Positions 1 through 46,728 are shown, counted from the first letter of the stretch. The stretch: DNA of 64,000 nt from Candidatus Aldehydirespiratoraceae bacterium (GCA_965249055.1 CBDFKX010000002.1:1936830-2000829), one strand, 5' to 3'. Notes: generated by a model not told the origin, from the letters alone. Numbers and translations: made by a program.

Positions 1-374
1 TCCGCAGGGGGCTTTGTGAAGCGACCCGTCGAGCGCGACCTCAGACAAGTCGAGGCCCACGATCCGGTCAAAGGCTTCCAGCGCCTCGCCGCAAACCCGG
101 TCGAACACCCCGACCGCGATCCATTCGTCGCGGCGGCCCCGAAGCGTGGTGTCAGACACCTCAAAATCCATGATCGCTTCCACATCGACCCACGACGCCC
201 CCGTCACCAACCGGATCATGATCCCCCGAAAACACACCCTGTCAGCGATCCGCGGTCGGTGACAACCCAACGGATGGCCCCGATCCGGCGGCGGCAACAA
301 CCACTTGACTGCCGCCCATACAGCATCAAACACTTCAGGCTCCAGCGCGCGCATAATGACAGAAACCTCCACCT
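1..374 (-). CDS. IS5-family (IS4/IS5 superfamily) DDE transposase, N-terminal part; the ORF runs off the left edge
   Basis: My own minus-strand translation from the ATG at 374-372 gives MRALEPEVFDAVWAAVKWLLPPPDRGHPLGCHRPRIADRVCFRGIMIRLVTGASWVDVEAIM...SEVALDGSLHKAPCG. This matches the typical N-terminus of actinobacterial IS5/IS427-group transposases. It is absent from the ORF track because it has no stop in the window. The listed 16..390 + ORF is its antisense shadow. Confidence 0.7.
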
Positions 375-455
375 GGTCGTCGTTGGTTAGGTCAACCCAA
401 AGTTCACTTCGGGCAACCCGACGACCGGTGGATGGTCACCTACCCGCGCGGCCCC
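1..455 (-). mobile_element. Partial IS5-like insertion sequence. Its inner end is placed near the TTAG at 456-459, where cas9 homology stops.
   Basis: The transposase start at 374 lies about 80 bp from the point where the cas9 reading frame degenerates into RLRGRAGR-stop. The exact terminus is not verifiable without the other end. Confidence 0.5.
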
Positions 456-2598
456 TTAGCCTCAAGAAGACGCGTACCCGACGCACATTCAACTGCTTGA
501 GTGCTTCTTCGGCGAACGTTTTCTGCACCGATTGCTCGCTATTCCCCGGGTTGTCCGCCTTGATCTGGCTCCACAGGTCTTTGAGTTCATCTCGGAGTTT
601 GCGATCGCGTACGTCGTCGAGCCTCTTTTCTGTGAGGGAGTCAAGTGACTTTGTCTCGATCAGGATAAATTTCCCGTTCTCGTCTCGCTTCGGCTTGCCT
701 TCGGAATCCCGAACGATTCCGTAGGCGGTGTCGTTGTGCAGAGCCCCGCTCGTCACATCTCTACCCGCGAGTCTCAACGTCTCCTTGTCCTTGAGAGCCG
801 TGAAGTGGTTTGGCCGATGACGTACGACGCAGCGATTCACAAGTTCGCTGACATCTGACCGGTAGCCCTGCCAAGGCAATTCTGCGGTAGCGATGTTCTC
901 AAGACATTCGTCCCGCCCGCTCGCGGTAGCAATGTTCCTCAAAAGAGATCGGGACGTCATCCCGACCACTGCCGCATCGACCATATGATGGCGATGATCC
1001 TTACGGTTCTTGCGTGCCTCTCCCGAACCCGAGAGGATGCTGTCGAGTCCCCAGTCTCGTCGCAGTTTTGCAGTCATTCGGCCCGGTGTGACCCAGATCC
1101 GGTTGTGGGGAACCGCCACTTCAAGGTAATCGCTGACGAGCCGAGAGAGGTAGCGATGTTCGTTCAGTTGACGATCGAGAAATCTATCATCTTGCTCCAA
1201 TCGCTCCATCGCGTTTTCTTTGAAGCGCCATTCTTTCTCCGCAGGCAAGAGTCTCGCCCGGGCGACAATCGCGTCGTAACGCTCGTTGTCGTGACCCCAG
1301 GCTTCAAATGGCGTTCGCTTGCCTTTCTCTTGGTTCGCAGCGGCCATGACAACGACCTTGTTGTTCATACTGATGTCAAGGCTCCGACAACCCGGCAGCA
1401 GGTGGTCCACCTCAGTTTCCGGGGAAAGCACACTCTCTATTGATAGCGATTCGCCAGTGAACGGACAGATTCGCTCGTTCGGCTTGCCTTGCTCATCCCA
1501 GAGCCGCAACCTGCCCATGTCCTTGCCTGAGAGATTTGAATGACCGGCGTCGAAAGCCGCGCTCCGTAACCGCTCGTTGCGTTCTCGGTTCTCTTTTTGG
1601 CTCTTCTTGTCTTCTCGTCGCTGTTGCTCGTTTTGTTTGAGTTCGCGTGCCAGTTCGACGACCACTTCGTAGGGTTTGCCGTGTTCGTCCACGATCGCGT
1701 TGAACAGTTTCCTTACCTGTCCGAGGGCGATATGCACCCTAGGATTGGCGAGCCGTCCGTGTTGTTCGGGTTTGCTGTACCCTGCGGGATCACCCCCTAC
1801 TGCTTGGGACAAAACGGTGCCATAGTAGGGCAATTTATCTTCATTGCCGCTGGCGTGACGGTTCGAATGATGGCCTAAACCGGCGGCCTCCACCGCTTCG
1901 TTGTAGCGGAGACCTGCAGACAGGTGCGGCAGGAGTCGTTCGATAGTGACCTTGGAGAGATGGCCGGTGCCCAGAGGCAGCCGCGCAGATGCTACGTGGG
2001 TTGCCGCTTCCTCACCGAGTCCGAATCTCTTCTCTAGCCAAGTAACGAGTTGTTGATGGTCCGTTTTCTCAATCAATCCCTCAACTAAGTCTTGTTGGTC
2101 GTCGAGGCTCAACGTGGCCCATCCGGCCTTACCAAAACACTTTGCGTTGCGTAATTTCACTCCGGTCTGATCGCCATCGATTTTCTCTCGGTTGCTCGAC
2201 ATATTGATACGGGTGCCCTCGGGCAATCCGAGGAATGCAACAATTTGGCCAAAGGTGTGGTCTTTGCTCTCCAGCAGATTGCCCACGAGCCTCTCCCGTT
2301 CTTCAGTGGTGAGAGACCTTGACTCCTGGTTTGGCGGTGCAACCCTCAGGTTGACGACCTCCTGCCAAATTCGGAATCGCTGGAACAACGGATGTGCTTT
2401 GTCGATTCTCTTATGATCGGGCAGGAGTGTGCAGTATCCCCGCTCAACAGGCCGTAGCTCACGTTGAAAAAGAACCGTGTCAACTATTCCCTTCCAGTCT
2501 TGTGGTGTGATTTGAGGGTGATGAGGTTTTTGTGCCGCGCGAATCGCATTGAGTTCATCCTCAATCATCGCTCGGTCCGGGTAGAGGCCATTTTCTAA
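436..2598 (-). pseudogene. cas9: cas9 (type II-C-like), C-terminal fragment: REC lobe, RuvC-II, HNH and RuvC-III. It lacks most of the WED/PAM-interacting region.
   Basis: Motifs found: VVVELAREL (RuvC-II), EVDHLLPGCRSLDISMNNKVVVMAAANQEKGKRTPFEAW (HNH) and HRHHMVDAAVVGM (RuvC-III). Only about 170 aa follow RuvC-III before the frame runs into the IS5-like element. Confidence 0.85.
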
Positions 2599-4252
2599 GC
2601 CTGGATCCACCGACGGGTTTGTGGGATCGTCGGTTTGGGGCCGGGTGGTCGTTGGGCTGGTGCGTGTGTGCGGGCTGGCGCGTTTTGGGGCGTTTTGGGG
2701 CGTGCGGGACTGGAGTGCGGGGCTGTGGCGGGTTGGTGGCGCTTGGGGTTGGGCTGCGCTGCGCGGGGCGCTGAGCGGCGGCTCAGATGAGCAGGGGGAG
2801 GTTGCGGATTCGTTGCAGGGCGGTGGTGAAGGTGTTCTGCCAGGGCCAGTTGAGCGGCAGGCGCAGTCTGTGGCGGCCGCTGTGGTTGACGAGGCGGCCT
2901 GGCACGGTGAGGAGCCGGTTGCGGATGGTGGCTGCGACGGTGAGTTGGCGCGTGGGGTGGGCGCGGCCGAGGCGGGCGGTCCAGCGGGCGAGGTTGTGCG
3001 CGAGCACGCAGCAGGCGAGCCAGGCGCCGTTGGCGGGGAATCGTCCTGAGGGGCAGCGGCTGAGCCCGGCGCTCTCTTTGAGGTCTCTGATGGCGAGCTC
3101 CACGGTGGCGTGGGCTCGGTGGTAGGTGTCGGCGGCTTTGGTGTCGAGGTCGTGTCTGTCGGTGACGAAGCAGTGGTAGCGCCAGTTGGGCCACAGCTCG
3201 CCTTGGGCGCCGAGCAGGCGGGTGCGGCGCACGATGAGCCGCAGCTTCGCGGGCTTGGCGTCGTCGCCGTGGAGCTTGTCGCCGCGGCGGCCGGCTTCGA
3301 TGGTGGTCTCAGCGACTTGGGCCTCGCCGCCGCGGGTGTAGGCGATCGGTGCCCAGTCGTCGTCGTCGTCTATGGCCGCTATGGCTGCTTTGACCTTGGC
3401 GTTCTGCGGGATCGTGATCGAGTAGGACGCACCGTGGGCGCCGAGGGCCGCGATCATGTCATAGGAGAAGAACCCCGCATCGGCGCGCACCGTCACCGCC
3501 GCGTGCGCCGCCAGGCGCCGCACCCTCGCCAGGGTCTCACGAGCGAAGTGCACGTTGCCGCGCTGAGACGATCCCGACCGCATCCGCGAGTGCAGCACCT
3601 CGCCGGTGTCTGAGCGCACCGCCACCAGCGGGTGATAGCCCAACACCTTGGTGTGGCCGTACGCGGCGCCGTGCTTGGCCTTGCCGCACACCTCACACAC
3701 CGTGGAGTCCAGATCCACCGTCATCTCCGCCACGCTCGGCGCGGCGCCCACAGACCACGCCCGCATCTGTGCTGACTCCAGAGCCTTGTCGAGTTGGCGC
3801 ACATGCCCGAACGTGAACGACCTCAAAAACGTCCCCAGCGTCGACGGCGCCAACGGCGCGAACGGCAGCACCGCCGCCGCCGAGCCCGACCGCAGCCGCT
3901 GCGCGTCGTCGATGCAGCACCCGCCCACCAGCATCGACGCCACCAAAGACAGCACCTTGTGACCCGCCCCCGAACCCGCCGACCCGCCCGGACGCACCGT
4001 GTCGTCGATCAACGCCTCCAAACCCAGCCTCGACATCACCGTGCCCGCCAGCAACAACCCCGCATCAGCCACCAAAGACCCATCATCGAACACCGCCCCC
4101 AACCCGTCGATCCCACCAGCTACGCTCCTCACAGGAAGTGCCTCCTCTCGTGGCCAGAATGACCGTTACATCAAACAGCATTCTCCCACGTCAGGAGGCC
4201 TTTCTGGTGGACGCGCCAACCCCCACAACCTCACCGCACCGGTGGATCCAGG
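2599..4252 (-). mobile_element. Complete IS1380-family insertion sequence (about 1.65 kb) inserted in cas9
   Basis: 14-bp perfect terminal inverted repeats: GCCTGGATCCACCG at 2599-2612 and CGGTGGATCCAGGC at 4240-4253. These are flanked by the direct repeat CTAA at 2595-2598 and 4253-4256 (one base ambiguous). The element holds a single 449-aa transposase ORF. Confidence 0.85.
2783..4132 (-). CDS. IS1380-family DDE transposase
   Basis: 449-aa ORF. The N-terminus ...FDDGSLVADAGLLLAGTVMSRLGLEALIDDTV... and the overall length are typical of IS1380-family transposases. Confidence 0.8.
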   Translation of the reverse strand: MRSVAGGIDGLGAVFDDGSLVADAGLLLAGTVMSRLGLEALIDDTVRPGGSAGSGAGHKVLSLVASMLVGGCCIDDAQRLRSGSAAAVLPFAPLAPSTLGTFLRSFTFGHVRQLDKALESAQMRAWSVGAAPSVAEMTVDLDSTVCEVCGKAKHGAAYGHTKVLGYHPLVAVRSDTGEVLHSRMRSGSSQRGNVHFARETLARVRRLAAHAAVTVRADAGFFSYDMIAALGAHGASYSITIPQNAKVKAAIAAIDDDDDWAPIAYTRGGEAQVAETTIEAGRRGDKLHGDDAKPAKLRLIVRRTRLLGAQGELWPNWRYHCFVTDRHDLDTKAADTYHRAHATVELAIRDLKESAGLSRCPSGRFPANGAWLACCVLAHNLARWTARLGRAHPTRQLTVAATIRNRLLTVPGRLVNHSGRHRLRLPLNWPWQNTFTTALQRIRNLPLLI

Positions 4253-4253
4253 C

Positions 4254-4829
4254 TAAGTTGGCGCGGATCGGCTTACCGCGGGTCTTGCGCAGCCACAGGT
4301 ATTCACCCAGGGTCCTTGCACCAGATTGTTGGATTCGATTGCGCTGTTCGCTGACCGCCTTGCGAATTAGCCCGCCTTCGCCACCGTCGGTCTTGCGGTT
4401 GCTCTTGAAACCTCGACGATCGACGAACGACATTAGCACGACACCCAGTTCATGCTCTTCCAGCCGTCGGTCCAAGCCCTCGGCACGCAGGCACCAAGGG
4501 TCAAGGTCTTGTGAGGCATTGCGTCCCGCTTCATCGGTGGTTAGCAGGCTGAGTTCGTGGAGTGTCTTAACCAGACGCTGTCGTCGGCCAATCATGCGGT
4601 CGCGGTTACGACGCATTCCACGTTTTTCGCGTCGATAGGATGCGTTCGACGTGCCGTTCTTCGGATTGCGGCCATCGGTGTGGATAAGGACTCCACCGTC
4701 AAGCAGTGAGATCGGCTCGGGCGGATCGCTATCGTCTAAGACATAGAGAACCCAACCGATGCTGTTGGTCCCTAGATCAAGTCCGAGGCGCAGCCTCTGT
4801 TGGTGTTCGTTAGGAGCCTTGGCGCGCAT
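4254..4829 (-). pseudogene. cas9: cas9, N-terminal fragment (RuvC-I and arginine-rich bridge helix)
   Basis: ATG at 4829 preceded by GGAGGAGAAG. Motifs found: LGLDLGTNSIGWVLY (RuvC-I Asp) and SYRREKRGMRRNRDRMIGRRQRLVKTL (bridge helix). Removing the IS and one TTAG copy rejoins this fragment in frame with 436-2598 (...RANL|ENGLYPDR...). Confidence 0.85.
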
Positions 4830-4845
4830 GACTTCTCCTCCGCTG

Positions 4846-4988
4846 GCTTGGAACACGTTGCCATACAGGGTCGCGAAGTGTAACGTTGTGGCAAGGGAAT
4901 GGTTGGCGATGCCTACGGGCACCAACAACAAGCTGAAATATGCACCAAGTTGCGAGACGGGCTCCGGCCCGTCTCTGCTCTGTTTTAT
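4846..4988 (+). ncRNA. Candidate structured small RNA (possible tracrRNA or repeat remnant), divergent from and partly antisense to the cas9 5' region
   Basis: The region has no credible ORF. It holds three hairpins in series: TTGCCATACA...TGTA..TGGCAA, then GTTGGCGATGCC-TACG-GGCACCAAC, then a GC-rich terminator hairpin followed by a T-tract. There is no CRISPR repeat in the window to test anti-repeat pairing. Confidence 0.3.
4954..4988 (+). terminator. Intrinsic-terminator-like hairpin
   Basis: GAGACGGGC-TCCG-GCCCGTCTC (9-bp perfect stem) followed by TGCTCTGTTTTAT. Confidence 0.55.
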
Positions 4989-5175
4989 CGCACTCTGTCC
5001 GCATCCGAGAGCGGTGGTCGGTGCATCCTCTGTAGCCTGTTGAGAGATCATTTGAAGATCGGTACCCCGCCGCCCCCTGACGTTCGGATGCTTTGTGCAA
5101 GTTCTGAAAAATGGAGTCTAGAACCTCCGCAAAGTGGAGTTTTGGACGGTGCGGATGCGGCCCATGTCGCTGTGA

Positions 5176-6042
5176 GAGTCGGGGGATTCCAGCGGAGAAG
5201 TATCCCTGGCCTCGCTGCTGGAAGGCGGACGCTGCGTGGCGAAAGATGTCGAACAGACCTACAGCGGCGTTGCTTCGGTGATCTGTCGAGGGGGTTGGCC
5301 CCGCATGATCAAGATGGCGCCGGACACGGCCCAAGCTCGCCTGCGTGACTATCTGGACAACATCACCCGCACCGACATTTCCCGAGTATCCGGCATCAAA
5401 CGCGACCCCCGGCTGGTGATGGCCCTGCTTGCATCCCTTGCCCGCAACGAAGCAACCGCCGCCTCCGGCGCTACCCTGATCAAGGATGTGGCCGGGGAAG
5501 CGGGCAACCCGCCGGCACGCTCCACGATTAGGGCCTACCTGGACGACTTGACCCGATTGTTCGTGCTTGAGCCCCTCCCGGCCTGGACCACCCATCTGAG
5601 ATCGTCGGCTCGTTTGAGAAAATCCCCGAAGCGGTTGTTCATCGACCCCTCGCTGGCCGTCGCCGCCTTGGCCGCGTCGGCGGGATCTGTCGCCCAAGAC
5701 AAGGAGGCGTTGGGGTTTCTGTTCGAATCGATGGCGATCCGTGACCTCCGGGTGTATGCCCAGTCGCTGGATGCCCACCTCTACTACTACGGAGATTCGA
5801 ATGGCCTCGAGGCTGATGTCGTGATCGAAGGATTGGACGGCCAATGGGCTGCCGTGGAGATCAAGCTCGGCGGAGGGAATGCTGTCGCCGGGGCCTTCGA
5901 ATCGCTTCGGGCAGTTCGCTCACAGATCGACACCACCCGGCGCGGAGAACCAGCCCGCCTCATCGTGCTCACCGCATTCGGCCACGGCTACCAGACCCAC
6001 GACGGCATCGCCGTCGTACCCCTGACCGCCCTCAAGCCCTGA
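5176..6042 (+). pseudogene. 5'-truncated AAA-ATPase/DUF4143-family gene. Only the C-terminal DUF4143 part is present.
   Basis: The ORF reads ...RGGWPRM...ARLRDYLDNI...LFIDPSLAVAAL...EALGFLFESMAIRDLRVYA...EADVVIE..., which matches the C-terminal two-thirds of COG1373-type ATPases. The Walker A/B N-terminal domain (about 150 aa) is missing, and the frame opens directly after a stop at 5173-5175. Confidence 0.6.
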
Positions 6043-6416
6043 ACGAGCACCGACGATGAACCTATAGGTCCCGGCGGATTTCCAGTTCCGGTCACCGATC
6101 CCCGCAGCCGCTACCGGCTCTGGCGAGCGACCGAGGTTGAGCACTGGATGCGAACCCACGTCGACGATGGGTATGAGACCCATGAGGACCACGTACGTGT
6201 GGCTATCAACGCCACTTTGGAGCTCCGCTACCACTCAAGCCACATTCCCGACGACCGGAGATCAAACCTGCTCGCTCTGGCCGGCCTGTAGACATGGACC
6301 GGTCTGGCTGGCCGTTTACCGATATATGACGTGAACTTGGATGCCGATGTCCTGAATTTTACATATACTTCATGATTTATGAGTGATTGTCACAGGGGGT
6401 CGATATAGTTACACCC

Positions 6417-7856
6417 ATGGAATTAGCCCCTGTTTCGGATCACTCGGACACCATCGCTGGTGGTGAGACGGCTGCTGGTGGCGTGGCTGTTGGTGGTGAG
6501 ACGGCTGCTGGTGGCGTGGCTGCCGGTGGGGTGGTTCATGTCGAGGTGGTGGATGTGGCCGCTTTGTGTGATGAGGGGTTGTCGTTGCGCCTGGGGGTGT
6601 TGGGTCGTGCTGAGTCTCGCTTGGCGGCGATGAAGGCGCAGGTGCTCGCTGAGGTTGGTCGTCGTCACAGCAAAGGCGATGCGCAGCGTATGGTTCGTGA
6701 CGAGTTGCAAGCCTCGAAGCGTGAGGCCAAACGCGATGTTGAGTCAGCGGCTCGGTTGGCGGAACTGCCCGCGACTAGTAAGGCGTTGGCGTCCGGTGAG
6801 ATCCCCCAAGGTCACGCTCGGTTGATTGCTCGGGCGTCGGGTGAGAGCACGATTGATGAAGAGCTGCTTGTTGAAGCAGCCAATACTGAGCCTTTTGATG
6901 AGTTCGCTAGGACTGTGAAACGTCATCAACAAGACCATGCCGACGATGACGGGCAGGCCTTGTTGGATCGTCAACGCAAGAACCGCAAAGCACGCATCTT
7001 TGAATCAGCCGAGTCCGGCATGTTCGTGCTGAGCGGTGAGTTTGATCAGATCACCGGAGCACGTATCGCTACCGCGTTGACCGCGAAAGAACGCCAGCTA
7101 TGGCACCGCGAGGACCCCAACAAGCGAGCCACGCCTCAGCAACGGATGGCTGACGCGTTGGCCGAGTTGATCTGCGAACCTGCTGGTGACGGCAAGTCTG
7201 CGGGCACTGATCTGTTGGTGATCGCTGATTTCGACGTGCTCAAGCAACAACTAGACAATCCCCGCCTCGCGGACGGTTCACCGATACCTGTCGTTGAGCT
7301 GCATCGCCTAGCCCTTGAAGCCAACTTGTTGCCTTCGATCTTTGACACCAAAGCCCAAGACATGTGGCTGGGCCGCCGGTTGCGGACCGCTTCTGAAGCT
7401 CAACGGGTCGCGTTGATCGCCCGTGATCAACACTGCATCGGCTGCGGGGCGAATCCGTTGTGGTGCCGAGCTCATCACATCATCTGGTGGTCAAAGAACG
7501 GACCCACCGACCTAGACAACCTGGTGTTGGTATGCGACGACTGCCACCACAAAATCCACGACCACGACTGGCAAGTCTACAAACACCCCGAAACCGGCAA
7601 ATACAAACTCAAACCCCCCAACCCAGCCGACACAGCAACCGCAGTCAACAAGGCAACTCCAACCTCATCCGGAGACCGGGCAGCAGCCGAAGTCAACTCG
7701 GCAACCCCAACCGGGCATCCGGGTGACCGCAAACGGGCAACCCCGGGCAGTCCAGCCGATGTCTTAAGACGCAACCGGACGGCGCAGGAACCAAACCCTC
7801 GGAGTGTGACTGCTTCGGAGGAGACTAGGGCAGGACCGGACTCAGAGCACAGGTAG
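6417..7856 (+). CDS. DUF222/HNH endonuclease (REP13E12-like family common in Actinobacteria)
   Basis: The C-terminal part reads DQHCIGCGANPLWCRAHHIIWWSKNGPTDLDNLVLVCDDCHHKIHDHDW (HNH). The N-terminal part is DUF222-like and helical. The start is uncertain (TTG 6387 or ATG 6417). The upstream region is AT-rich. Confidence 0.8.
   Translation: MELAPVSDHSDTIAGGETAAGGVAVGGETAAGGVAAGGVVHVEVVDVAALCDEGLSLRLGVLGRAESRLAAMKAQVLAEVGRRHSKGDAQRMVRDELQASKREAKRDVESAARLAELPATSKALASGEIPQGHARLIARASGESTIDEELLVEAANTEPFDEFARTVKRHQQDHADDDGQALLDRQRKNRKARIFESAESGMFVLSGEFDQITGARIATALTAKERQLWHREDPNKRATPQQRMADALAELICEPAGDGKSAGTDLLVIADFDVLKQQLDNPRLADGSPIPVVELHRLALEANLLPSIFDTKAQDMWLGRRLRTASEAQRVALIARDQHCIGCGANPLWCRAHHIIWWSKNGPTDLDNLVLVCDDCHHKIHDHDWQVYKHPETGKYKLKPPNPADTATAVNKATPTSSGDRAAAEVNSATPTGHPGDRKRATPGSPADVLRRNRTAQEPNPRSVTASEETRAGPDSEHR
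6456..6521 (+). repeat. 33-bp tandem duplication inside the HNH gene (AGGETAAGGVA x2)
   Basis: GCTGGTGGTGAGACGGCTGCTGGTGGCGTGGCT is repeated with one mismatch. Confidence 0.8.
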
Positions 7857-8099
7857 CGCCAAGGCTCAAACAAGACGGGAACGGTTGATCCGGTTGCGAG
7901 TCACCCAGCCGTTAGTAGGTCCCGGCAGGTCCGAGTTGAGTTTCGGAGATGGCCAACCGACGGCGCTCCCGGTGGACGCCGAATGTCGCTCGCGCCGATA
8001 ATCTCTGGACCTTGGTATCCTCACCGGTAGCCGAATGGTGGCTGCCGCCCGCGCAATGCGGGGCGTGCGGCTGGGTAAGAGACCCAAAGGAAATATCTA

Positions 8100-8381
8100 A
8101 TGGCTACCAGCCTGCGCCCAAAATCTGAGACCATCGCCGATATGGCGACCGCCTTTGATCTAGCCGAGAACGACACCGGTTCGCCGGAAATACAAATCGC
8201 CCTGCTATCGGCACGGATCACACACCTCACCGAACACATGAAGGTTCACAAAAAGGACCATCACACGCGGAGAGGTTTGCAGATGCTGGTAGGCCGCCGT
8301 CGTCGTCTTCTCGACTACGTCATGGACAACGATGTAGAACGCTACAGAGCAGTGATCACCCACCTCGGGTTGCGTCGCTGA
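8100..8381 (+). CDS. rpsO: 30S ribosomal protein S15
   Basis: 93 aa, reading ...[48 protein letters not shown]... It sits upstream of pnp as usual. Confidence 0.95.
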
Positions 8382-8626
8382 ATAAAGTCCGCTGAATAAA
8401 ATCAAAGGGCAATCCCACGGGGCTGCTCTCAACCGGTTGGATCCAGGTCAACACCTAGAACCAACCCGACGAATCCCAGTCGCTGGAATGTCCAGCAAAC
8501 GAAGAACACAAGACCGTTGGTGCTAGTCGAAAATCTCTGAACTGATCAGCCTCCCGAGAGGCCAAGACCAAGATCAGCGATTTCCGACTGGGAACTGGCA
8601 GTCATGTGTTCAGGAGAAACAACAAA

Positions 8627-11071
8627 ATGACTAATTCCCAATCCTTCACCGGCTCGTTCGCGCGCGGTGAGGGCAAAAACGCCACATTCGAGGTTGGCAA
8701 GTTCGCCCCCCTCGCCGGTGGCTCCGTCACCGCAAGTATCGGTGACACAGTTGTACTGGTCACCGCGACCGGAGCAGCGACACCCCGCGAAGGTGCGGAT
8801 TTCTTTCCGCTGACCGTCGATATCGAGGAGCGGATGTATGCCGCCGGCAAAATCCCCGGCTCCTTCTTCCGACGGGAAGCCCGAGCGGGTGAGCAGGCGA
8901 TACTCACCTGTCGCCTCATCGACAGACCGCTTCGCCCCGCCTTCCCTGATGGTTACCGCAATGAAGTACATGTGGTAGGCACCGTTCTCGGAGCGGACCA
9001 GAAGAACCCCTATGACGTTCTGGCTCTCAACGCCGCCTCGTTGGCCCTGTGCCTCTCGCCCGTCCCGTTCGATGGCCCCATCGGAGCAGTCCGCATGAGC
9101 TGGTCGCCAGAAGGCGAGTGGATTCCCTTCCCCACCTATCAAGAGTCCTCCGAATCGGCCTTCGACATGGTGGTCGCCGGTCGACTGAGCGACAACGATG
9201 TTGCGGTGATGATGGTTGAGGCCGGCGGAACCGGCAATTCTTGGACTCTGTACGAGTCGGGCACACCCAAGGTCGACGAAGATGTGCTCGCCGGAGGCCT
9301 TGAAGCGAGCAAGACTTGGATTCGCGAGATGATCGAGTTGCAGCAGCAGGCGGTTGACGCCGCTGGCGACATCAAAAAGATGGAACCCCCGCTCATCGTC
9401 GACCACAGCGACGAAATCTTTCAAGCGGTGCAAGCTGCGGCTACTGAGCGAATCGCCAACACGCAACAAATTGCTGACAAGAGCGAGCGCCAGGCAGCAG
9501 AAGCAGAACTCAGAGAGGCCGTCGTAGCCGAACTGGCTGAGTTCACCGCAAAAGACCCCAATGCCGCCAGACAGATCAAAAACTCCATCCGAGCGATCAC
9601 CAAACAGGTAGTCCGCAAGCGGATAGTCGAAGAAGGCATCCGCATTGATGGACGCAAGACCGACGAACTCCGCAAGGTCACCAGCGAAGTTGAGGTGATC
9701 CCCACAGCACACGGCTCCGGCCTCTTCCAACGCGGGGAGACCCAAGTGCTCAACTTCACGACACTCGGGATGGGTCGAAGCGACATGATGATCGACGACA
9801 TCTCGCCGACAGACAAGAAGCGGTACTTCCATCACTACAACTTCCCGCCTTTCTCCACTGGAGAGACCGGGTTCATGCGAGGCCCCAAACGCCGCGAGAT
9901 CGGGCACGGAGCTCTGGCCGAACGTGCTGTGTTCCCGGTGATTCCCTCCTTCGAGGAATGGCCCTACACCGTGCGAACCGTGTCTGAGGTGATGGCCTCC
10001 AACGGTTCGAGTTCGATGGGTTCGGTGTGTGGATCGACGCTCTCGCTGATGGATGCTGGCGTTCCGATCAAGGCTCCGGTTGCCGGCATCGCCATGGGCC
10101 TTGTTCACGCTGAGGGCGAATACGTCACACTCACCGACATCCTGGGTGCAGAGGATGCCTTCGGCGACATGGACTTCAAGGTCGCAGGCACAACCGATTT
10201 CGTAACTGCACTGCAGCTCGACACCAAGATCGCAGGCATCCCGGCCAACGTTTTGGCGAATGCGCTCGCGCAGGCCAAAGAGGCTCGCCTCGACATTCTC
10301 GATGTGATGGCTGAGGCCATTGCTGAGCCCCGCGAAGATGTGCGTGACACCGCGCCGAAGATCACCACCTTTGAGATCCCGGTCGACAAGATTGGTGAAA
10401 TCATCGGCCCCAAGGGCAAGGTCATCAACGCCATCCAGGCCGAGACTGGTGCCGATATTTCAGTTGATGACGACGGCATGGTCGGCGTTGTGTCGATTGC
10501 CTCGGTTGACAACGCCAAGGTGGCCGAAGCTGAGCGTCAAATCAAGCTGATCCTTGATCCACCCACCGCCGAGGTTGGTGCCACCTATCCGGGCCGAGTT
10601 GTGAACATCACCAAGTTCGGTGCCTTCGTCAACATTCTTCCCGGACGTGATGGCCTGCTCCACATCTCCAAGATTGGTGGCGGCAAGCGGATCGACCGGG
10701 TTGAGGATGTGCTCTCTTTGGGAGACGAATTGGTGGTTGTCGTCGAAGACGTGGATCCCAACGGAAAGATCTCGCTGAAGCCCGAGGGCGCTGCAGACAC
10801 CGACCGCGATCGCGGAGGTCGTGACCGTGATCGTGGAGGTCGTGACCGAGGTGGTCGTGACCGTGGCGGGCCGAATCGTGACCGCAACGACCGCAACAGC
10901 CGTAACGACCGCGGTGACCGCGAATCAGAAGCGTCCGATGACCGCAAGCGCCAGTCGGTTTCGTTCGAGGACGCCTTCGACGCAGAGCTATCCCAGCAGT
11001 TCGACAATCTCGGCCCAGACGCTCCCGCGCGCGGACGAGGTTACGGCTCTGGCGGACGCGGTCGTCGCTAA
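8627..11071 (+). CDS. pnp: Polynucleotide phosphorylase with an extra Arg/Asp/Gly-rich C-terminal tail
   Basis: Two RNase PH domains, then KH and S1 (GRVVNITKFGAFVNILPGRDGLLHIS). AGGAGA precedes the ATG at 8627. A low-complexity tail of about 95 aa follows S1 (DRDRGGRDRDRGGRDRGGRDRGG...GRGYGSGGRGRR). Confidence 0.95.
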   Translation: MTNSQSFTGSFARGEGKNATFEVGKFAPLAGGSVTASIGDTVVLVTATGAATPREGADFFPLTVDIEERMYAAGKIPGSFFRREARAGEQAILTCRLIDRPLRPAFPDGYRNEVHVVGTVLGADQKNPYDVLALNAASLALCLSPVPFDGPIGAVRMSWSPEGEWIPFPTYQESSESAFDMVVAGRLSDNDVAVMMVEAGGTGNSWTLYESGTPKVDEDVLAGGLEASKTWIREMIELQQQAVDAAGDIKKMEPPLIVDHSDEIFQAVQAAATERIANTQQIADKSERQAAEAELREAVVAELAEFTAKDPNAARQIKNSIRAITKQVVRKRIVEEGIRIDGRKTDELRKVTSEVEVIPTAHGSGLFQRGETQVLNFTTLGMGRSDMMIDDISPTDKKRYFHHYNFPPFSTGETGFMRGPKRREIGHGALAERAVFPVIPSFEEWPYTVRTVSEVMASNGSSSMGSVCGSTLSLMDAGVPIKAPVAGIAMGLVHAEGEYVTLTDILGAEDAFGDMDFKVAGTTDFVTALQLDTKIAGIPANVLANALAQAKEARLDILDVMAEAIAEPREDVRDTAPKITTFEIPVDKIGEIIGPKGKVINAIQAETGADISVDDDGMVGVVSIASVDNAKVAEAERQIKLILDPPTAEVGATYPGRVVNITKFGAFVNILPGRDGLLHISKIGGGKRIDRVEDVLSLGDELVVVVEDVDPNGKISLKPEGAADTDRDRGGRDRDRGGRDRGGRDRGGPNRDRNDRNSRNDRGDRESEASDDRKRQSVSFEDAFDAELSQQFDNLGPDAPARGRGYGSGGRGRR

Positions 11072-11118
11072 CCCTTTGGCACACCCACAGGCTCCAGCGG
11101 CTGTACTGTTGTAGAGAT

Positions 11119-12030
11119 ATGCAGCCGTTTCGCAATTTCGGCGAGAGTGACGATCCGTGGTTCCGCGTCGGTCAAGTCGCCGTAACTACCACCGTCATCG
11201 TTTCGGCGATGAGCGTGGCCTACATGTTCGTCTGGGCGTTCGAGGGTTTTGACCGTCCGATTACCACGAAACTCCTGCTAAACGCAGGGTCTCGGCATGG
11301 GACTGTGGGTGGAGGTGAGATCTGGAGGCTGGTGACATGGCCACTTCCGACGGAGCCCTCGCTGTGGACGCTGCTGTTGGTCGCAGTCTTTTGGATGCTG
11401 GGATCACAGCTGGAAGCGCTGATGGGTCGTCGGCGCTTCACGTTCTTTCTCTTGGTGCTAACCGTTGTTCCGGCGCTGGTGATGACGGCGTTGGAGTTCA
11501 CCGACATCTTCGGCTTCGCCTATGGGCTCCGCTACGTCGAACTCGGGATTCTGGTTGCGTTCGCAACCCAATACTCAAGCATCCGCTTCTGGCCAGGGAT
11601 CCCCGCCTGGGGACTAGCGGGGATCATCGTCGGGATGGCAATGCTTCAAGCCATCAGCAACCAGAGAGGCTACGAACTCGTCCTTACCGTGACGATGGCC
11701 TTCCTGGCGCCTTTGATGCTGCGGGCCCTCGGCCACGCTGAACAACACGAATGGATACCTAAGTTCCCACTGCCGGCCAAACTCGGAGGCGGTCCGAATC
11801 ATCGCCCGCCGACCCGACAACGCAAACGTTCCCAACCCCGTCAACGCAGCACTCACCTCTCTTCAGTTCCGCCCCCACCGCCACCCCCAGGCGATGTCGC
11901 TGCCCAGGCTAAGATCGACGCCTTGCTCGACAAGATGGGTGAGCATGGCTTGGAGAGCTTGACCGAAGCCGAACGCCGCACGCTCGAAGACCTCTCCAAG
12001 CGTCTGCGCGACAGGCGGGACCGAAGTTGA
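11119..12030 (+). CDS. Polytopic membrane protein, rhomboid-like; catalytic GxSG/His not evident
   Basis: GEIWRLVTWPL and LEALMGRRRF resemble rhomboid TM2/L1 motifs, and there are several TM helices. The C-terminal tail is soluble, helical and charged. I could not find a Ser-His dyad. Confidence 0.4.
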   Translation: MQPFRNFGESDDPWFRVGQVAVTTTVIVSAMSVAYMFVWAFEGFDRPITTKLLLNAGSRHGTVGGGEIWRLVTWPLPTEPSLWTLLLVAVFWMLGSQLEALMGRRRFTFFLLVLTVVPALVMTALEFTDIFGFAYGLRYVELGILVAFATQYSSIRFWPGIPAWGLAGIIVGMAMLQAISNQRGYELVLTVTMAFLAPLMLRALGHAEQHEWIPKFPLPAKLGGGPNHRPPTRQRKRSQPRQRSTHLSSVPPPPPPPGDVAAQAKIDALLDKMGEHGLESLTEAERRTLEDLSKRLRDRRDRS

Positions 12031-12037
12031 GTCGGCC

Positions 12038-12766
12038 ATGACGCGCATAGGAGTCGTGGGTGCCGAAGGGCGCATGGGCCAGGCGGTTTGCAGCGCGGTC
12101 CGAGACGACCCAGCACTTGAGCTTGTGGCTGCAATCGACATCGAAGATTCACTTGCGGTACTCGTAAAGAAGCAATGTGAAGTAGTCGTTGATTTCACGG
12201 TTGCTTCAGCAGCTCGCCAAACGCTTAGGTTCCTAGCCGCCAACGGAATTCACGCCGTCGTCGGCACGACCGGATTCAGTGATGAGGACCTGGCTCTTTT
12301 TGCTCAAGCATTTACCGAAAGCAACTGTTTGATCGCGCCCAATTTCGCCATCGGAGCGGTGCTGATGATGCGTTTCGCCGAGTTGGCAGCTCCCCATTTC
12401 TCAACGGTTGAGGTGATCGAATATCACCACGACGCCAAGGTAGATGCTCCCTCGGGAACAGCGATTCGTACGGTCGAGCGTATTAGCTCAGCTTCGGCTG
12501 ATTGGGGCGACGACCCCACGCAACACGAGGTCGTGCCAGGGGCGCGTGGAGGTCAAGGACCTGGCGGCGTGAAGGTTCATTCGGTGCGTATGCGCGGCGT
12601 TGTTGCCAATCAGGAAGTGCTGCTGGGTACGACTGGTCAAACCCTGTCAATCCGTCACGACACCATCGATCGCACCTCGTTTATGCCTGGCGTTTTGCTT
12701 GGCTGCAAGCGGGTAGCCGAATTCGAGGGGCTAACCCTCGGCCTAGATGCCTTCCTCGGTCTCTGA
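12038..12766 (+). CDS. dapB: 4-hydroxy-tetrahydrodipicolinate reductase
   Basis: Motifs found: RIGVVGAEGRMGQAV and EVIEYHHDAKVDAPSGTA. Confidence 0.9.
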   Translation: MTRIGVVGAEGRMGQAVCSAVRDDPALELVAAIDIEDSLAVLVKKQCEVVVDFTVASAARQTLRFLAANGIHAVVGTTGFSDEDLALFAQAFTESNCLIAPNFAIGAVLMMRFAELAAPHFSTVEVIEYHHDAKVDAPSGTAIRTVERISSASADWGDDPTQHEVVPGARGGQGPGGVKVHSVRMRGVVANQEVLLGTTGQTLSIRHDTIDRTSFMPGVLLGCKRVAEFEGLTLGLDAFLGL

Positions 12767-13586
12767 GCCAACCGAGTCTGCTGGATTGGGGGAGACGGTT
12801 CAGCCAGAGGGTCAATCACAGAAGCCACCAGCATCGTCGGCGCGCTGGGCGTTCTCGGTGCGCTGGATCCTCTCACACCTCTTTGTTCTGACCATGGTCG
12901 TCACCATGATCAACCTGGGGTTTTGGCAAATACGGCGCCTCGAAGAACGACAGGAGCGAAACAGCGAAATCAAGGCGGTTCTAGAAGCGGAGCCACAAGA
13001 AATCGAGACGTTACTGGCGTTGCCGACGTTGCCGCCAGACCACACAGCAGCGCTTGTCGTTGGCCAATACCTTGATGAGCATTCGTTTCTGGTAGCCAAC
13101 CGGACCTACGACACCGAGCCGGGAAACTGGCTCGTAACCCCTATGGAATTGTCAGATGGAACGGTCGTGGTCATTAGTCGGGGTTGGGTTCCCCGCCTAT
13201 GGGCCGCCGGGGTGCACGAGCATGATCTCAGTGTCCCAGATGGGGAGGTGATCGTCGTCGGCAGGGCCTTCAGCAGTGTCGGCGGGGGAAGTATCGGCAG
13301 CGACGACATTGCCATCCTGACTGAACTGAATCGACTTGATCTTGACCGGGTTTTCGAACTCACCGGTCTTGCGGTAGCGGACCTGTGGGTGCAGTTGGAT
13401 CAACAACAGCCTGCGGTCGCTTCACTGCCAGTGCCGGTGCCGCCAGAGAGCCTCGACGATGGCCCGCATCTTTCGTATGCGTTTCAGTGGTTTTTCTTCT
13501 CGGCGGGAGCCATCGTCGTCTACGGCTTGATCCTGCGCAGGCGTCACCGTGAGCCGCAAAGAGCGCCGCGCGTCGAGCCGCTGTGA
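12747..13586 (+). CDS. SURF1/Shy1-family cytochrome oxidase assembly protein
   Basis: N-terminal TM with GFWQIRRLEERQ, then ISRGWVP, and a C-terminal TM with LSYAFQWFFFS. Confidence 0.8.
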   Translation: MPSSVSEPTESAGLGETVQPEGQSQKPPASSARWAFSVRWILSHLFVLTMVVTMINLGFWQIRRLEERQERNSEIKAVLEAEPQEIETLLALPTLPPDHTAALVVGQYLDEHSFLVANRTYDTEPGNWLVTPMELSDGTVVVISRGWVPRLWAAGVHEHDLSVPDGEVIVVGRAFSSVGGGSIGSDDIAILTELNRLDLDRVFELTGLAVADLWVQLDQQQPAVASLPVPVPPESLDDGPHLSYAFQWFFFSAGAIVVYGLILRRRHREPQRAPRVEPL

Positions 13587-13665
13587 ATCGAGCCCTGTGA
13601 ACAATGACCGGAGCAAAGATCGGAATTGGAAGCCAACTCTTGCTTCGGCGTGGCACGATAACAAG

Positions 13666-14556
13666 ATGCAAGCACGCTTTGGGCGGGTACTCACCGCCAT
13701 GGTCACCCCGTTCCACTCCGACGGATCGCTGGATCTCCAAGGTGCGCAGCAACTGGCCCGTTACCTCACCACCCAAGGCGGTAGCGACGGTCTTGTGATA
13801 GCGGGTACCACAGGAGAAAGCCCGACCCTCACTCACGATGAGCAGATCGATCTGATCTCGGCGGTGACCGAAGCCATCGACAAGCCGGTAGTTGCGGGTG
13901 CAGGTAGCAACGACACTCGCGCCGCGGTGGAGTTGAGCGAACGCGCCACCGAAGTGGGGGCAGCGGGGCTGTTGCATGTAGCGGGGTACTACAACCGTCC
14001 GAGTCAAGCTGGACTGAGAGAACACTTTCGTGCCTGCGCGCAGTCCACTGATCTGCCGATACTGCTCTATGACATTCCAGGCCGCACGGGTCGCAAGATT
14101 GCCACTGAGACCATGGCGGAACTATTCGCCACAGTGCCCAACATCATTGGCGTGAAGGATGCCTCCGCAAACCCTGCCGAGACCGCCAGGTTGCTTGCGA
14201 TTTCTCCCGATGACACTCAGGTCTACAGCGGTGATGACGGACTCACTTTGGCATTGCTGGCTATCGGCGCGGTGGGCACGATCGGCGTGGCTACTCATTG
14301 GATCGGATCCGAAGTGGCCGAGATGATGGAGACATTCTTCGCTGGTGATGTGGACTCCGCCGCTGAGATCAACCGCCGACTGATCCCGTCCTATCAGTTC
14401 GAGACGGGCGACGACGCCCCCAACCCCGTCCCGACCAAGGCAATGCTGCGGGTGATGGGCCTTCCCGGTGGGCCGACGCGCATGCCGATGGGGCCTGAAC
14501 CCGAGGGCCTCCAAACAGAGGCCCAGGCGGTGCTCTCGGCGCTTGGCCGGTCCTGA
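13666..14556 (+). CDS. dapA: 4-hydroxy-tetrahydrodipicolinate synthase
   Basis: Motifs found: FGRVLTAMVTPF..., GLVIAGTTGESPTLT and IIGVKDAS. The ATG at 13666 was chosen over the longer ORF. Confidence 0.9.
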   Translation: MQARFGRVLTAMVTPFHSDGSLDLQGAQQLARYLTTQGGSDGLVIAGTTGESPTLTHDEQIDLISAVTEAIDKPVVAGAGSNDTRAAVELSERATEVGAAGLLHVAGYYNRPSQAGLREHFRACAQSTDLPILLYDIPGRTGRKIATETMAELFATVPNIIGVKDASANPAETARLLAISPDDTQVYSGDDGLTLALLAIGAVGTIGVATHWIGSEVAEMMETFFAGDVDSAAEINRRLIPSYQFETGDDAPNPVPTKAMLRVMGLPGGPTRMPMGPEPEGLQTEAQAVLSALGRS

Positions 14557-39236: not shown

Positions 39237-39551
39237 ATGGTTTCCGAGCCTGATGAGGTTGCGTATTCGACTGCTGTGCGTGTGCAGTTGCCGAACCTCA
39301 ACAATGCCGCGAAGCATGATGTGTGGCGTGACCGTCAGATACAGGCACAGGGCTACAACTGGGGTGTCGAGCACGCGTTGGGGGTCTTCTTCGCAGATGA
39401 ACGTATCCAGTCGGCGCGGACGCATTCTCAACCGTTGACAAAGTACCGTCAGAAGGCTCCGTACACCACAGCATCCGCCACGACCGCAGCCCGCCTCGGC
39501 GCTCACTTGCTCACTTCGGCTCGGGCGCTGCTAGGTTCTTCGGTTCTATGA
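39237..39551 (+). pseudogene. Possible 5' fragment of a second tnpB-like gene
   Basis: AYSTAVRVQLPNLNNAAKHDVWRDRQIQAQGYNWGVEHAL resembles the TnpB N-terminal pattern (A-Y/F-x-x-R-L-x-P-N...Q...G..R..YN..L). The ORF stops after 104 aa, where the RCC1 gene starts. Confidence 0.35.
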
Positions 39552-45480: not shown

Positions 45481-46728
45481 GGGCCAGTTCTTCCCGCCGA
45501 GGATCCACTCGCCGTCTCCGTTGTAGGCAATGCCGTTGAGCACCGTATGGCGTTCATCGGTCGAGACGCCGACTTCAGCGGCGAGCGATGCGGCGTCGAT
45601 TGACACCAGCACCTCTCCAGAATCGGGGTCGATGACGATGATCTCATTGGTCAGCCAGATGTTGGCGACAACCAGCCCCTCGACACATTCGAGTTCGTTG
45701 ATCCTTGTTACGGGCTCGTTGTTGCGTCGAATGGTCGTAGTCGCCACGACCGCGAAGTCCCTGCTGCGGTGGGTGAGTGTAGAGGTGCCGTCGCTCATCA
45801 ATAGACGCGAACTGCCGTCGTCCCAACAGATCCCCCAACCCTCGCCGTCGTAACGGTACTCTCCGAGCGGCTCGAAGGTGTCGCGGTCCCAGCGCAACGC
45901 CCGACCCTCGCGCCAACTGAGTTGAATAATCTCGTCACCGACCAGAGTCAGGCCCTCGCCGAACACCTCGGAGTCGAGCGCAACCGAGCGCAGTTCATCG
46001 GGGCCGTTGAGGGCACGCAGACGGGATTCTCCGTAGAGCCCGGTGCTCTCATAGATGATCCCGCCGTCAGTCTCAAGTCCTTGAGTGAAGGCTTCGGTGT
46101 TGTGACTCCATGAAGCTTCGATCTTCACCCGCCATTCTCGATCCTCAGCAGTGCGGGGATCTGCGGGCCACGGCGACACAGCGACCTCGCCCGGCAAAGT
46201 CGTACTGGTGGTCGAGCTCGTGCCGGTCGGAGTCGTGGTCGTCGCAGAGGTTGAGCCGGTGGACGGTGCCACGCCGGTGGTTGGCCTGGTGCCGGTGTCG
46301 ATGGACGGAGCCGCGCCGGTTGTCGGCGTCGTGCTGTCGTCGGAGGCCGTGTCGGTGGATGAGTTCGTGTCGGTGGATGAGTTCGTGTCGGTGGATGGGC
46401 TCGTGTCGGTGGATGAGTTCGTGTCGGTGGATGGGCTCGTGTCGGTGGATGGGTTCGTGTCGGTGGATGAACCCGTGTCGGTGTTTGACGTTGTGCTGTT
46501 GTCGGTGACCGTGTCGGTGGATGAACCCGCACCGGAGGTTGGCGTGGTGCTTCTGTCGGTAGCGAGGCTGGAGACCTCGGCGCTGTCGCTCGGGGTCGCC
46601 GTGGTTGAAGGGCTGACAACAGGCTCACCGACAGGCCGGTCACCGTCTGATCCAGCGCACGCCGAGGCAACGAGGCAACAGAGGCACACAACCGCACCGA
46701 GCGGGCCCCGGACGAGCCGGCGGATCAT
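45448..46728 (-). CDS. Lipoprotein: glutamine cyclotransferase (beta-propeller type) with a Ser/Thr/Asp-rich repeat linker
   Basis: Lipobox-like LVASAC and an (STDTN/STDTS)n linker. The C-terminal domain reads HNTEAFTQGLE...YESTGLYGESRLR...FGEGLTL...LSWREG...GWGI...LNGIAY. Confidence 0.75.
   Translation of the reverse strand: MIRRLVRGPLGAVVCLCCLVASACAGSDGDRPVGEPVVSPSTTATPSDSAEVSSLATDRSTTPTSGAGSSTDTVTDNSTTSNTDTGSSTDTNPSTDTSPSTDTNSSTDTSPSTDTNSSTDTNSSTDTASDDSTTPTTGAAPSIDTGTRPTTGVAPSTGSTSATTTTPTGTSSTTSTTLPGEVAVSPWPADPRTAEDREWRVKIEASWSHNTEAFTQGLETDGGIIYESTGLYGESRLRALNGPDELRSVALDSEVFGEGLTLVGDEIIQLSWREGRALRWDRDTFEPLGEYRYDGEGWGICWDDGSSRLLMSDGTSTLTHRSRDFAVVATTTIRRNNEPVTRINELECVEGLVVANIWLTNEIIVIDPDSGEVLVSIDAASLAAEVGVSTDERHTVLNGIAYNGDGEWILGGKNWPLQFLVTLTLN
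46349..46474 (-). repeat. 18-bp tandem repeat (about 7 units) encoding the STDTN/STDTS linker
   Basis: GTGTCGGTGGATGAGTTC and GTGTCGGTGGATGGGCTC units alternate. Confidence 0.8.

What the first reader, a model, noticed from the sequence alone, without database searches (positions are those of the whole stretch)
436..4829. Type II-C-like cas9 inactivated twice: split by IS1380 and 3'-truncated by an IS5-like element
All Cas9 signature motifs are present across two fragments: RuvC-I, bridge helix, RuvC-II, HNH and RuvC-III. The fragments rejoin in frame once the 1654-bp IS and one TTAG copy are removed (...KPIRANL|ENGLYPDRAMIEDEL...). The reconstructed protein is about 911 aa and stops about 170 aa after RuvC-III. 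At that point an IS5-like element begins, again next to a TTAG, so the PAM-interacting domain and anything downstream are gone. On that side, where cas1, cas2 and an array could have been, only the IS5-like element lies between the cas9 remnant and the window edge. The preserved frame and motifs suggest recent inactivation. This makes it a useful natural record of CRISPR loss by IS activity and a source for reconstructing a compact actinobacterial Cas9.
Basis: partly seen in the sequence, partly recalled or inferred. Interest (0 to 1): 0.7.

Follow-up and report, generated by a model that had tools for sequence, protein, structure and literature searches.

The report
Cas9 gene split by two transposons
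A type II-C cas9 gene in an Acidimicrobiia genome is cut into three pieces by two recently inserted mobile elements, a well-documented way of switching off CRISPR; its tail, cas1 and cas2 are still in the genome, and unbroken copies coexist in the same sample.

Summary
On the minus strand, cas9 codons 1-190 (4829..4258) and 191-905 (2599..457) are separated by a 1653-bp IS1380-family element (2600-4252, 13-bp inverted repeats, CTAAG duplication). Removing 1658 bp restores a frame that aligns without gaps, at 93% identity, to an intact 1058-aa Cas9 (P0001). At 455/456 the end of an IS5-family element abuts cas9 at a TTAG (YTAR) target.

The gene is interrupted a second time, and nothing shows it is truncated. 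The window's own 3,552,646-bp contig also encodes the missing Cas9 C-terminus (P0257, 127 aa, ending at the native end), a full-length Cas1 (P0246) and Cas2 (P0271). Contigs from the source sample also carry the empty site of each IS on otherwise identical sequence, so both insertions are recent and not fixed. Relatives in four other samples lack both insertions.

The intact protein is an ordinary-sized II-C Cas9, not a compact one. A conserved candidate tracrRNA lies just upstream on the opposite strand (4885-4986).

IS inactivation of cas genes is already documented (PMC10359306). This is a clean natural example and is not new biology. That the 3' piece lies directly left of the window is inferred, not shown.

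The parts
1..455 (-). IS5-family element, partial. It holds one terminus (sense-strand end GGGGCCGCGCGGGTAGG...) and the first 118 codons of its transposase (ATG at 354..352). It runs off the left edge of the window and is co-oriented with cas9.
   Evidence: Pfam DUF4096 scores 45.9 bits (cut-off 34.3). NF033580 IS5-family transposase has E 6e-12 but is below its cut-off because only the N-terminus is available. The terminal 43 nt are 1000-3000x deep, and the many copies diverge at 456-463.
456..459 (.). TTAG (CTAA on the cas9 sense strand). This is the YTAR target of the IS5-like element and presumably one copy of its 4-bp duplication.
   Evidence: The empty-site contig reads ...GAGGCTAAG|CGAAGACAGTG... 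with a single CTAA. Other copies of the IS are also flanked by TTAG. The YTAR preference of IS5 is stated in PMC10359306.
436..438 (-). Stop codon that ends the read-through from cas9 into the IS5-like end, six codons (RGRAGR) past the break.
457..2599 (-). cas9 middle fragment, codons 191-905. It covers most of REC, RuvC-II, HNH, RuvC-III and the start of the WED/PI region. The source annotation calls it as a 710-aa ORF (P0002).
   Evidence: blastn to L001 10573-12715 gives 95.8% identity with no gaps. BLASTP to P0001. Pfam and NCBIfam hits.
2595..2599 (.). Left copy of the IS1380 target-site duplication, CTAAG.
   Evidence: (repeat I2). The site is single-copy in L001.
2600..4252 (-). IS1380-family insertion sequence, 1653 bp, with 13-bp perfect terminal inverted repeats CCTGGATCCACCG. 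The transposase ORF is 4132..2783 (449 aa). GC is 69% against 56% for cas9.
   Evidence: NF033539 scores 288 bits (cut-off 180) and PF13701 147 bits. Inverted repeats. Depth is 100-1000x in the sample's contigs.
4253..4257 (.). Right copy of the IS1380 target-site duplication, CTAAG.
4258..4829 (-). cas9 5' fragment, codons 1-190, with RuvC-I, the bridge helix and the start of REC. The start codon ATG is at 4829. The source annotation calls it as a 212-aa ORF (P0255) that reads 22 codons into the IS1380 element.
4885..4986 (+). Candidate tracrRNA, transcribed away from cas9. The anti-repeat is at 4885-4929, followed by AAGCUGA..., a terminator hairpin at 4954-4975 and a U-tract. This assignment is inferred.
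   Evidence: Repeat-like sequence sits on the strand opposite cas9 in the window and in 7 related loci. Its core co-varies with each locus's own CRISPR repeat. The terminator hairpin is conserved, with 2 compensatory pairs. No Rfam family matches.

Best explanation
This is the cas9 gene of a type II-C CRISPR-Cas locus in an Acidimicrobiia genome. Its close relatives are MAGs, some of which carry sponge-symbiont genus names.

In the assembled haplotype, two independent cut-and-paste insertions have broken cas9 into three ORFs of 212, 710 and 127 aa:
1. An IS1380-family element sits between codons 190 and 191. It is complete and flanked by a CTAAG duplication.
2. An IS5-family element sits after codon 905, at a CTAA/TTAG (YTAR) target.

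No piece carries both nuclease domains together with the PAM-interacting domain, so interference is lost in cells with these alleles. Cas9-dependent PAM selection during spacer acquisition would be lost as well. The loss of function is inferred.

The rest of the system is not deleted. The cas9 3' end, cas1 and cas2 are on the same contig, most likely directly beyond the IS5-like element just left of the window. That adjacency is inferred. A candidate tracrRNA upstream of cas9 is identical to that of an intact relative.

Both insertions are very young. The same sample still contains the uninterrupted site for each IS on otherwise identical sequence, and relatives in other samples lack both.
For: **Shown**
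- cas9 identity and subtype. The related intact locus L001 has cas9-cas1-cas2, then an array of 36-nt repeats and about 30-nt spacers, with no csn2 or cas4.
- The rejoined gene aligns without gaps, at 93% identity over 905 aa, to the 1058-aa P0001. DNA synteny with L001 runs from window 457 to 13785, apart from the IS1380 insert and a divergent stretch around the HNH gene.
- IS1380 hallmarks are present: transposase above cut-off, 13-bp inverted repeats, 5-bp duplication, and a single-copy target in L001.
- The IS5-like terminus is at 455 and TTAG flanks many copies.
- P0257 (Cas9 C-terminus), P0246 (Cas1) and P0271 (Cas2) all sit on a 3,552,646-bp contig. That is the contig length of the window's own proteins P0002, P0255, P0275 and P0290.
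- No second cas9 from that contig appears among the 120 listed homologues.
- Empty IS5 site: contigs in runs X2 and X1 match 455-2599 with 0 mismatches. They then continue with rc(TTGTCGCGAATGAATACAACACTGTCTTCG) = CGAAGACAGTGTTGTATTCATTCGCGACAA, which is the L001 sequence just past the break.
- Empty IS1380 site: an X2 contig joins 2594 to 4253.
- Occupied junctions in the same sample: X1 contigs cover 455-2623, 4228-5200 and 433-484.
- In X1, subtracting the other contigs' depths leaves about 3.5 for the empty IS5 site against 2 for the occupied one (my calculation).
- Four other samples have 4.8-5.1-kb contigs that cross both sites without either IS.

**Inferred**
- Loss of function.
- Adjacency of the 3' piece.
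- Selection, if any.
Against: - The sequence left of the window could not be read. Look-ups of the source contig returned nothing. The other IS5 end, its duplication and the position of the cas9 3' piece are therefore unseen.
- The run data are k-mer contigs, not reads. The allele proportions are rough, and the phase of the two insertions is unknown.
- The empty-site contigs could come from a near-identical co-resident strain and not from the same clonal population.
- dN/dS for cas9 against L001 is 0.49, compared with 0.18-0.30 for neighbouring genes. This fits a defence gene but does not exclude some earlier relaxation of selection.
Confidence: 0.8

Rival explanations
1. An IS5-mediated rearrangement, either an inversion or a deletion between two IS5 copies, separated the cas9 3' end, cas1 and cas2 from this site. 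Under this reading the gene here is truly truncated and the remainder lies elsewhere on the chromosome.
For: Only one end of the IS5-like element is visible. The element is highly repeated in the sample, so recombination between copies is plausible. The position of P0257, P0246 and P0271 on the contig is unknown.
Against: - The break lies exactly at an IS terminus and at a YTAR target, as expected for a simple insertion.
- The same sample carries the exact empty site continuing into the cas9 3' end.
- The C-terminal ORF ends at the native Cas9 end, and Cas1 and Cas2 are full length.
Confidence: 0.1
2. The IS5-like element marks a deletion that removed the PAM-interacting domain, cas1, cas2 and the array from the genome.
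For: None of these features is present anywhere in the 64-kb window.
Against: The Cas9 C-terminus (P0257), Cas1 (P0246) and Cas2 (P0271) are all encoded on the same 3,552,646-bp contig.
Confidence: 0.03
3. The IS insertions are assembly artefacts, with repeat reads wrongly threaded into an intact cas9.
For: The empty sites have similar or higher k-mer depth than the occupied junction in run X1. Run X2's contigs follow the empty paths.
Against: - Junction k-mers for the occupied sites exist in the run contigs: 455-2623, 4228-5200 and 433-484.
- The IS1380 element has a perfect 5-bp target duplication at a site that is single-copy in relatives. A mis-join would not create that.
Confidence: 0.05

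Closest known systems
Natural IS transposition into cas genes that inactivates CRISPR-Cas (Sheng et al., Nat Commun 2023, PMC10359306)
   Same: An insertion sequence lands inside a cas effector gene and abolishes it. An IS5-type element uses a YTAR target. The event is polymorphic and recent.
   Different: Here two different IS families hit the same cas9, in an uncultured Acidimicrobiia genome. No selective trigger such as self-targeting or plasmid maintenance has been identified. The IS1380 family is not mentioned in that paper (0 occurrences).
Intact orthologous locus on ENA contig ERZ28763718:ctg12817 (L001; Cas9 P0001, 1058 aa)
   Same: It is 93% identical at the protein level and 95.8% at the DNA level. 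It has the same upstream neighbours and an identical candidate tracrRNA. Its gene order is cas9-cas1-cas2-array.
   Different: Its cas9 is uninterrupted. Its own IS load sits elsewhere: a DDE_3 (IS630-type) transposase gene lies between cas2 and the array, and IS110-type and ISL3-type transposase genes split the array.
Cas9 chains of about 1082-1092 aa, the best PDB matches by sequence (9ar4, 6jdq, 6kc8). From my own knowledge, 6jdq and 6kc8 are Neisseria meningitidis type II-C Cas9.
   Same: Similar domain order and size (about 1060-1090 aa). These are the closest solved structures by sequence (E 1e-54 to 2e-67).
   Different: The sequence match is essentially limited to the RuvC-II/HNH/RuvC-III core (residues 466-757). 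PAM specificity and guide architecture are unknown. The tracrRNA here is upstream of cas9 and divergently transcribed.

Membership tests
Cas9 (Csn1), type II CRISPR effector | Split RuvC nuclease (motifs I, II, III) with an inserted HNH nuclease and an Arg-rich bridge helix; whole-protein profile match | tested here: met
   TIGR01865 scores 523 bits (cut-off 100). Pfam Cas9_a, HNH_4 and RuvC_III hits are present. Motifs are located.
Cas9 (Csn1), type II CRISPR effector | C-terminal WED and PAM-interacting region | tested here: met
   It is absent from the window. It is encoded as a separate 127-aa ORF (P0257) on the same contig and aligns to the C-terminus of P0001 and P0249.
Type II-C CRISPR-Cas locus | Gene set cas9-cas1-cas2 with no csn2 (II-A) or cas4 (II-B) | tested here: inconclusive
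   The feature is met in the orthologous locus L001. In the window's genome, Cas1 and Cas2 exist on the same contig, but their position and neighbours could not be read.
Type II-C CRISPR-Cas locus | CRISPR array with about 36-nt repeats | not testable with these tools
   The window has no array and no repeat copy. L001 has 25 repeats of 36 nt. The window's genome outside the window is not readable.
Type II-C CRISPR-Cas locus | tracrRNA with an anti-repeat complementary to the repeat | tested here: met
   The candidate is at 4885-4986 (+). Its anti-repeat co-varies with the repeat in 7 related loci, and the terminator hairpin is conserved. Expression was not tested.
IS1380 family insertion sequence | IS1380-type DDE transposase | tested here: met
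   NF033539 scores 288 bits (cut-off 180) over profile positions 3-419 of 419.
IS1380 family insertion sequence | Terminal inverted repeats and a short (4-5 bp) target-site duplication | tested here: met
   The inverted repeats are 13 bp, CCTGGATCCACCG. CTAAG flanks both sides and is single-copy in L001. The family norm of 4-5 bp is from my own knowledge of ISfinder.
IS5 family insertion sequence | IS5-type transposase (DUF4096 N-terminal domain plus DDE domain) | tested here: inconclusive
   Only the N-terminal 118 aa lie in the window. DUF4096 is above its cut-off (45.9 against 34.3 bits). NF033580 scores 45.6 bits, below its cut-off of 110. The DDE domain lies outside the window.
IS5 family insertion sequence | YTAR target, duplicated on insertion | tested here: inconclusive
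   The target CTAA/TTAG is seen at the visible junction, in the empty-site allele and beside other copies. The second copy of the duplication is outside the window.

The most novel reading that the evidence does not exclude
The two IS insertions may not be mere decay. They could reflect a standing, selected polymorphism in which the symbiont population keeps both CRISPR-on and CRISPR-off cells. Abundant ISs that prefer (C)TAAG/YTAR sites inside cas9 would then act as a recurrent off-switch, for example to tolerate mobile elements or escape self-targeting. The repeated IS hits in the orthologous locus of a relative (L001) hint at this.
Probability: 0.1. Interest if true: 0.5.

Novelty: new member of a known kind. 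Interest (0 to 1): 0.27.

Why it matters
This is a tidy natural example of CRISPR-Cas being switched off by insertion sequences. Two different IS families sit in one cas9, each with its empty site still segregating in the same sample, in an uncultured Acidimicrobiia lineage whose relatives include MAGs with sponge-symbiont genus names.

Nothing needs to be reconstructed from a truncated gene, because intact 1058-aa orthologues, their repeat and a candidate tracrRNA are already available. It also shows how a window edge can make an insertion look like a truncation.

It adds no new mechanism beyond what PMC10359306 describes.

Tried and rejected
- **Reading the DNA left of the window.** Look-ups of P0002, P0246 and P0257 returned no record, so the source contig could not be read.
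- **Laying the sample's runs on L001.** This was meant to find the IS5/cas9-3' junction.
- **The single genome-contig scan with P0001.** It returned only relatives at 48-65% identity. Every peptide pattern taken from P0001 differs by one or two residues in the window or falls in its missing part, so the window's own genome could not have been picked up.
- **Other IS5 end via inverted-repeat similarity.** I looked for it among loose ends at 455-463. No contig shows CTAAGCGAAG... behind 455. This is uninformative, because the inverted repeats may be imperfect and the depth is about 2x.
- **Self-targeting as a trigger.** The 23 spacers of L001 have no match in the window. The window genome's own array is unavailable.
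- **Evidence of long-term decay.** dN/dS is 0.49, and there are 10 private substitutions at otherwise invariant positions against 0-5 in relatives. This is proportionate to the longer branch and not evidence of decay.
- **RNA checks.** Rfam has no hit in the window. A plain repeat/upstream duplex-energy test was only about 2.6 SD from background. The tracrRNA call rests on the cross-locus covariation instead.
- **Native short Cas9.** This was considered and rejected.
Full report
**What is in the sequence**

The minus strand of window 436-4829 carries a cas9 gene in two pieces. The pieces run 4829..4258 and 2599..457. Between them lies a 1653-bp element (2600-4252) with these features:
- 13-bp perfect terminal inverted repeats, CCTGGATCCACCG;
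- a 449-aa ORF that scores 288 bits against the IS1380-family transposase model (cut-off 180);
- a direct CTAAG repeat on both sides.

Removing 1658 bp restores ...KPIRANL|ENGLYPDR... in frame. The rejoined ORF scores 523 bits against the Cas9 equivalog TIGR01865, matching model positions 2-878 of 1070. It contains RuvC-I, the bridge helix, RuvC-II, HNH and RuvC-III.

At its 3' end the ORF runs six codons (RGRAGR, stop at 438..436) into another element. That element's first 118 codons (ATG at 354..352, running off the window) are a DUF4096 / IS5-family transposase N-terminus.

**Comparison with relatives**

The best homologue, P0001 (1058 aa), aligns with the rejoined protein over 905 residues at 93% identity without a single gap. 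It then continues for 153 more residues.

Its contig (L001) has cas9-cas1-cas2, then a DDE_3 (IS630-type) transposase gene, then a CRISPR array. The array has 25 repeats of 36 nt with about 30-nt spacers and is itself split by IS110-type and ISL3-type transposase genes. There is no csn2 or cas4, so the locus is type II-C.

At the DNA level L001 matches the window from 457 to 13785, apart from the IS1380 insert and a divergent stretch around the HNH gene. The two segments that flank the IS1380 overlap by exactly the 5-bp target, which proves a target-site duplication. Homology stops at 457.

The window itself holds no cas1, no Cas9 C-terminus and no copy of the repeat. cas2 was covered only by the nucleotide comparison with L001.

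The closest solved structures by sequence are Cas9 chains of about 1082-1092 aa. From my own knowledge, 6jdq and 6kc8 are Neisseria type II-C Cas9.

The nearest named relatives of a housekeeping protein, S15, are Acidimicrobiaceae or Acidimicrobiia MAGs. Related Cas9 loci come from Poriferisocius, Dehalococcoidia and Tepidiformaceae MAGs.

**Is the gene truncated or only interrupted?**

The window's own proteins (P0002, P0255, S15, DapB) lie on a contig of 3,552,646 bp. Three further proteins lie on a contig of the same length:
- P0257, a 127-aa ORF that starts at an internal Met of Cas9 (MDVWLLPDGK...) and ends at the native C-terminus ...GKIGKT;
- P0246, a full-length 298-aa Cas1;
- P0271, a 101-aa Cas2.

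P0257 is closest to the C-terminal variant of another intact relative, P0249, so it is a normal allele and not a decayed one. No second cas9 from that contig appears among the 120 listed homologues.

The genome therefore carries cas9 in three ORFs (212, 710 and 127 aa) plus cas1 and cas2. The simplest reading is a second simple insertion, with the other half of the IS and the rest of the locus lying just beyond the window edge. I could not read that flank, because look-ups of the source contig return nothing. Adjacency is therefore inferred.

**Evidence from the source sample**

Three runs of one sample (X1-X3) hold 97-100% of the sampled words of the cas9 fragment. The cas9 contigs there are about 2-6x deep. 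The IS1380 interior is 100-1000x deep, and the last 43 nt of the IS5-like end are 1000-3000x deep.

Copies of the IS5-like end diverge from one another at 456-463, mostly after a shared TTAG. This places the terminus at 455 and the target at 456-459. TTAG is a YTAR site, the preference reported for IS5 (PMC10359306).

Both empty sites are present in this sample:
- **IS5 site.** Contigs in X2 and X1 match 455-2599 with no mismatch and then continue leftwards. The continuation is the reverse complement of TTGTCGCGAATGAATACAACACTGTCTTCG, that is CGAAGACAGTGTTGTATTCATTCGCGACAA. This is the L001 sequence immediately past the break.
- **IS1380 site.** An X2 contig joins 2594 directly to 4253.

Occupied junctions are seen in the same sample, in X1 contigs covering 455-2623, 4228-5200 and 433-484. 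In X1, subtracting the other contigs' depths leaves about 3.5 for the empty IS5 site against 2 for the occupied one. That is my calculation and it is rough.

Four other samples carry relatives of about 95% identity. Their 4.8-5.1-kb contigs cross both sites without either IS.

Both insertions are therefore real, recent and not fixed.

**State of the gene**

Apart from the insertions the reading frame is clean. dN/dS against L001 is 0.49, compared with 0.18-0.30 for neighbouring genes. The window's Cas9 has 10 private changes at otherwise invariant positions, against 0-5 in relatives, on a branch that is two to three times longer. This fits a defence gene disrupted very recently and gives no sign of long decay.

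**An extra part: a candidate tracrRNA**

On the strand opposite cas9, 56 nt upstream of its start, lies a repeat-like sequence (4885-4929). It is followed by AAGCUGA..., a GC-rich hairpin (4954-4975) and a U-tract.

The same arrangement occurs upstream of cas9 in L001, L002, L003, L005, L008, L009 and L010. The core of the anti-repeat changes together with each locus's own repeat (GGGAATGG, GGAAATGG or GGAAACGG). The terminator stem shows two compensatory pairs. The window and L001 are identical over this RNA.

The arrangement implies that the array is transcribed opposite to cas9. Rfam has no matching family, and expression is untested.

**Mechanism and verdict**

Two cut-and-paste transpositions into (C)TAAG/YTAR sites split cas9. 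No fragment has both nuclease domains together with the PAM-interacting domain, so interference should be lost in cells with these alleles, and probably Cas9-dependent spacer selection as well. This loss is inferred.

Whether the disruption is selected, for example by self-targeting or tolerance of mobile DNA, or is just IS bombardment of a dispensable locus, cannot be decided here. L001's spacers do not match the window, and the window genome's own array is out of reach.

IS inactivation of cas genes is documented (PMC10359306), so this is a new member of a known kind. It is of modest interest, mainly as a caught-in-the-act example in an uncultured Acidimicrobiia lineage.

Noticed in passing
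window 4885-4986 (+); also upstream of cas9 in L001, L002, L003, L005, L008, L009, L010: A conserved small-RNA gene is divergent from cas9. It has a repeat-like anti-repeat that co-varies with each locus's CRISPR repeat and a terminator hairpin with compensatory changes, so it is a likely tracrRNA. The window and L001 versions lack a small GAGCC...GGC hairpin that the other loci have.
   Followed up: partly
window 2600-2617 joined to 3928-4252 (seen in contigs of runs X1-X3, X4, X11): An internally deleted derivative of the IS1380 element (about 1310 bp missing, replaced by a 21-22-nt filler) is present at depths of 14-126 in several samples. It may be a non-autonomous, MITE-like copy.
   Followed up: no
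window 457 joined to 2598 (contigs in X1 and X11): A contig joins the IS5-like end directly to the IS1380 end through the shared AGCCT. This suggests that elsewhere the two ISs sit back to back in the same TTAG/CTAAG-type target.
   Followed up: no
window 5236-6042 (+): The DUF4143-domain gene upstream of cas9 has an in-frame TGA relative to its L001 orthologue and lacks the usual N-terminal ATPase part. It is probably a gene remnant in both genomes.
   Followed up: partly
window 39548-42154 (+), tandem repeats 40279-41952: An 868-aa protein carries 16 RCC1 repeats (111-nt period) and two S-layer homology domains. It looks like a eukaryote-like repeat protein anchored to the cell surface.
   Followed up: partly
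L001 14486-15586 and 16202-20499: The intact relative's CRISPR locus has its own IS load. A DDE_3 (IS630-type) transposase gene lies between cas2 and the array, and IS110-type and ISL3-type transposase genes split the array. The locus seems to be a recurrent IS landing site in this lineage.
   Followed up: partly
window 6387-7856 (+): This HNH-endonuclease gene (489 aa) has a short tandem-repeat N-terminus (6456-6534). It is only partly alignable to the 596-aa HNH gene at the same position in L001 (87% identity over about 1.1 kb, then diverged).
   Followed up: no
window 46348-46560: Tandem repeats of 18 and 54 nt (CGTGTCGGTGGATGAGTT-like) lie inside a coding region. Their nature was not examined.
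   Followed up: no
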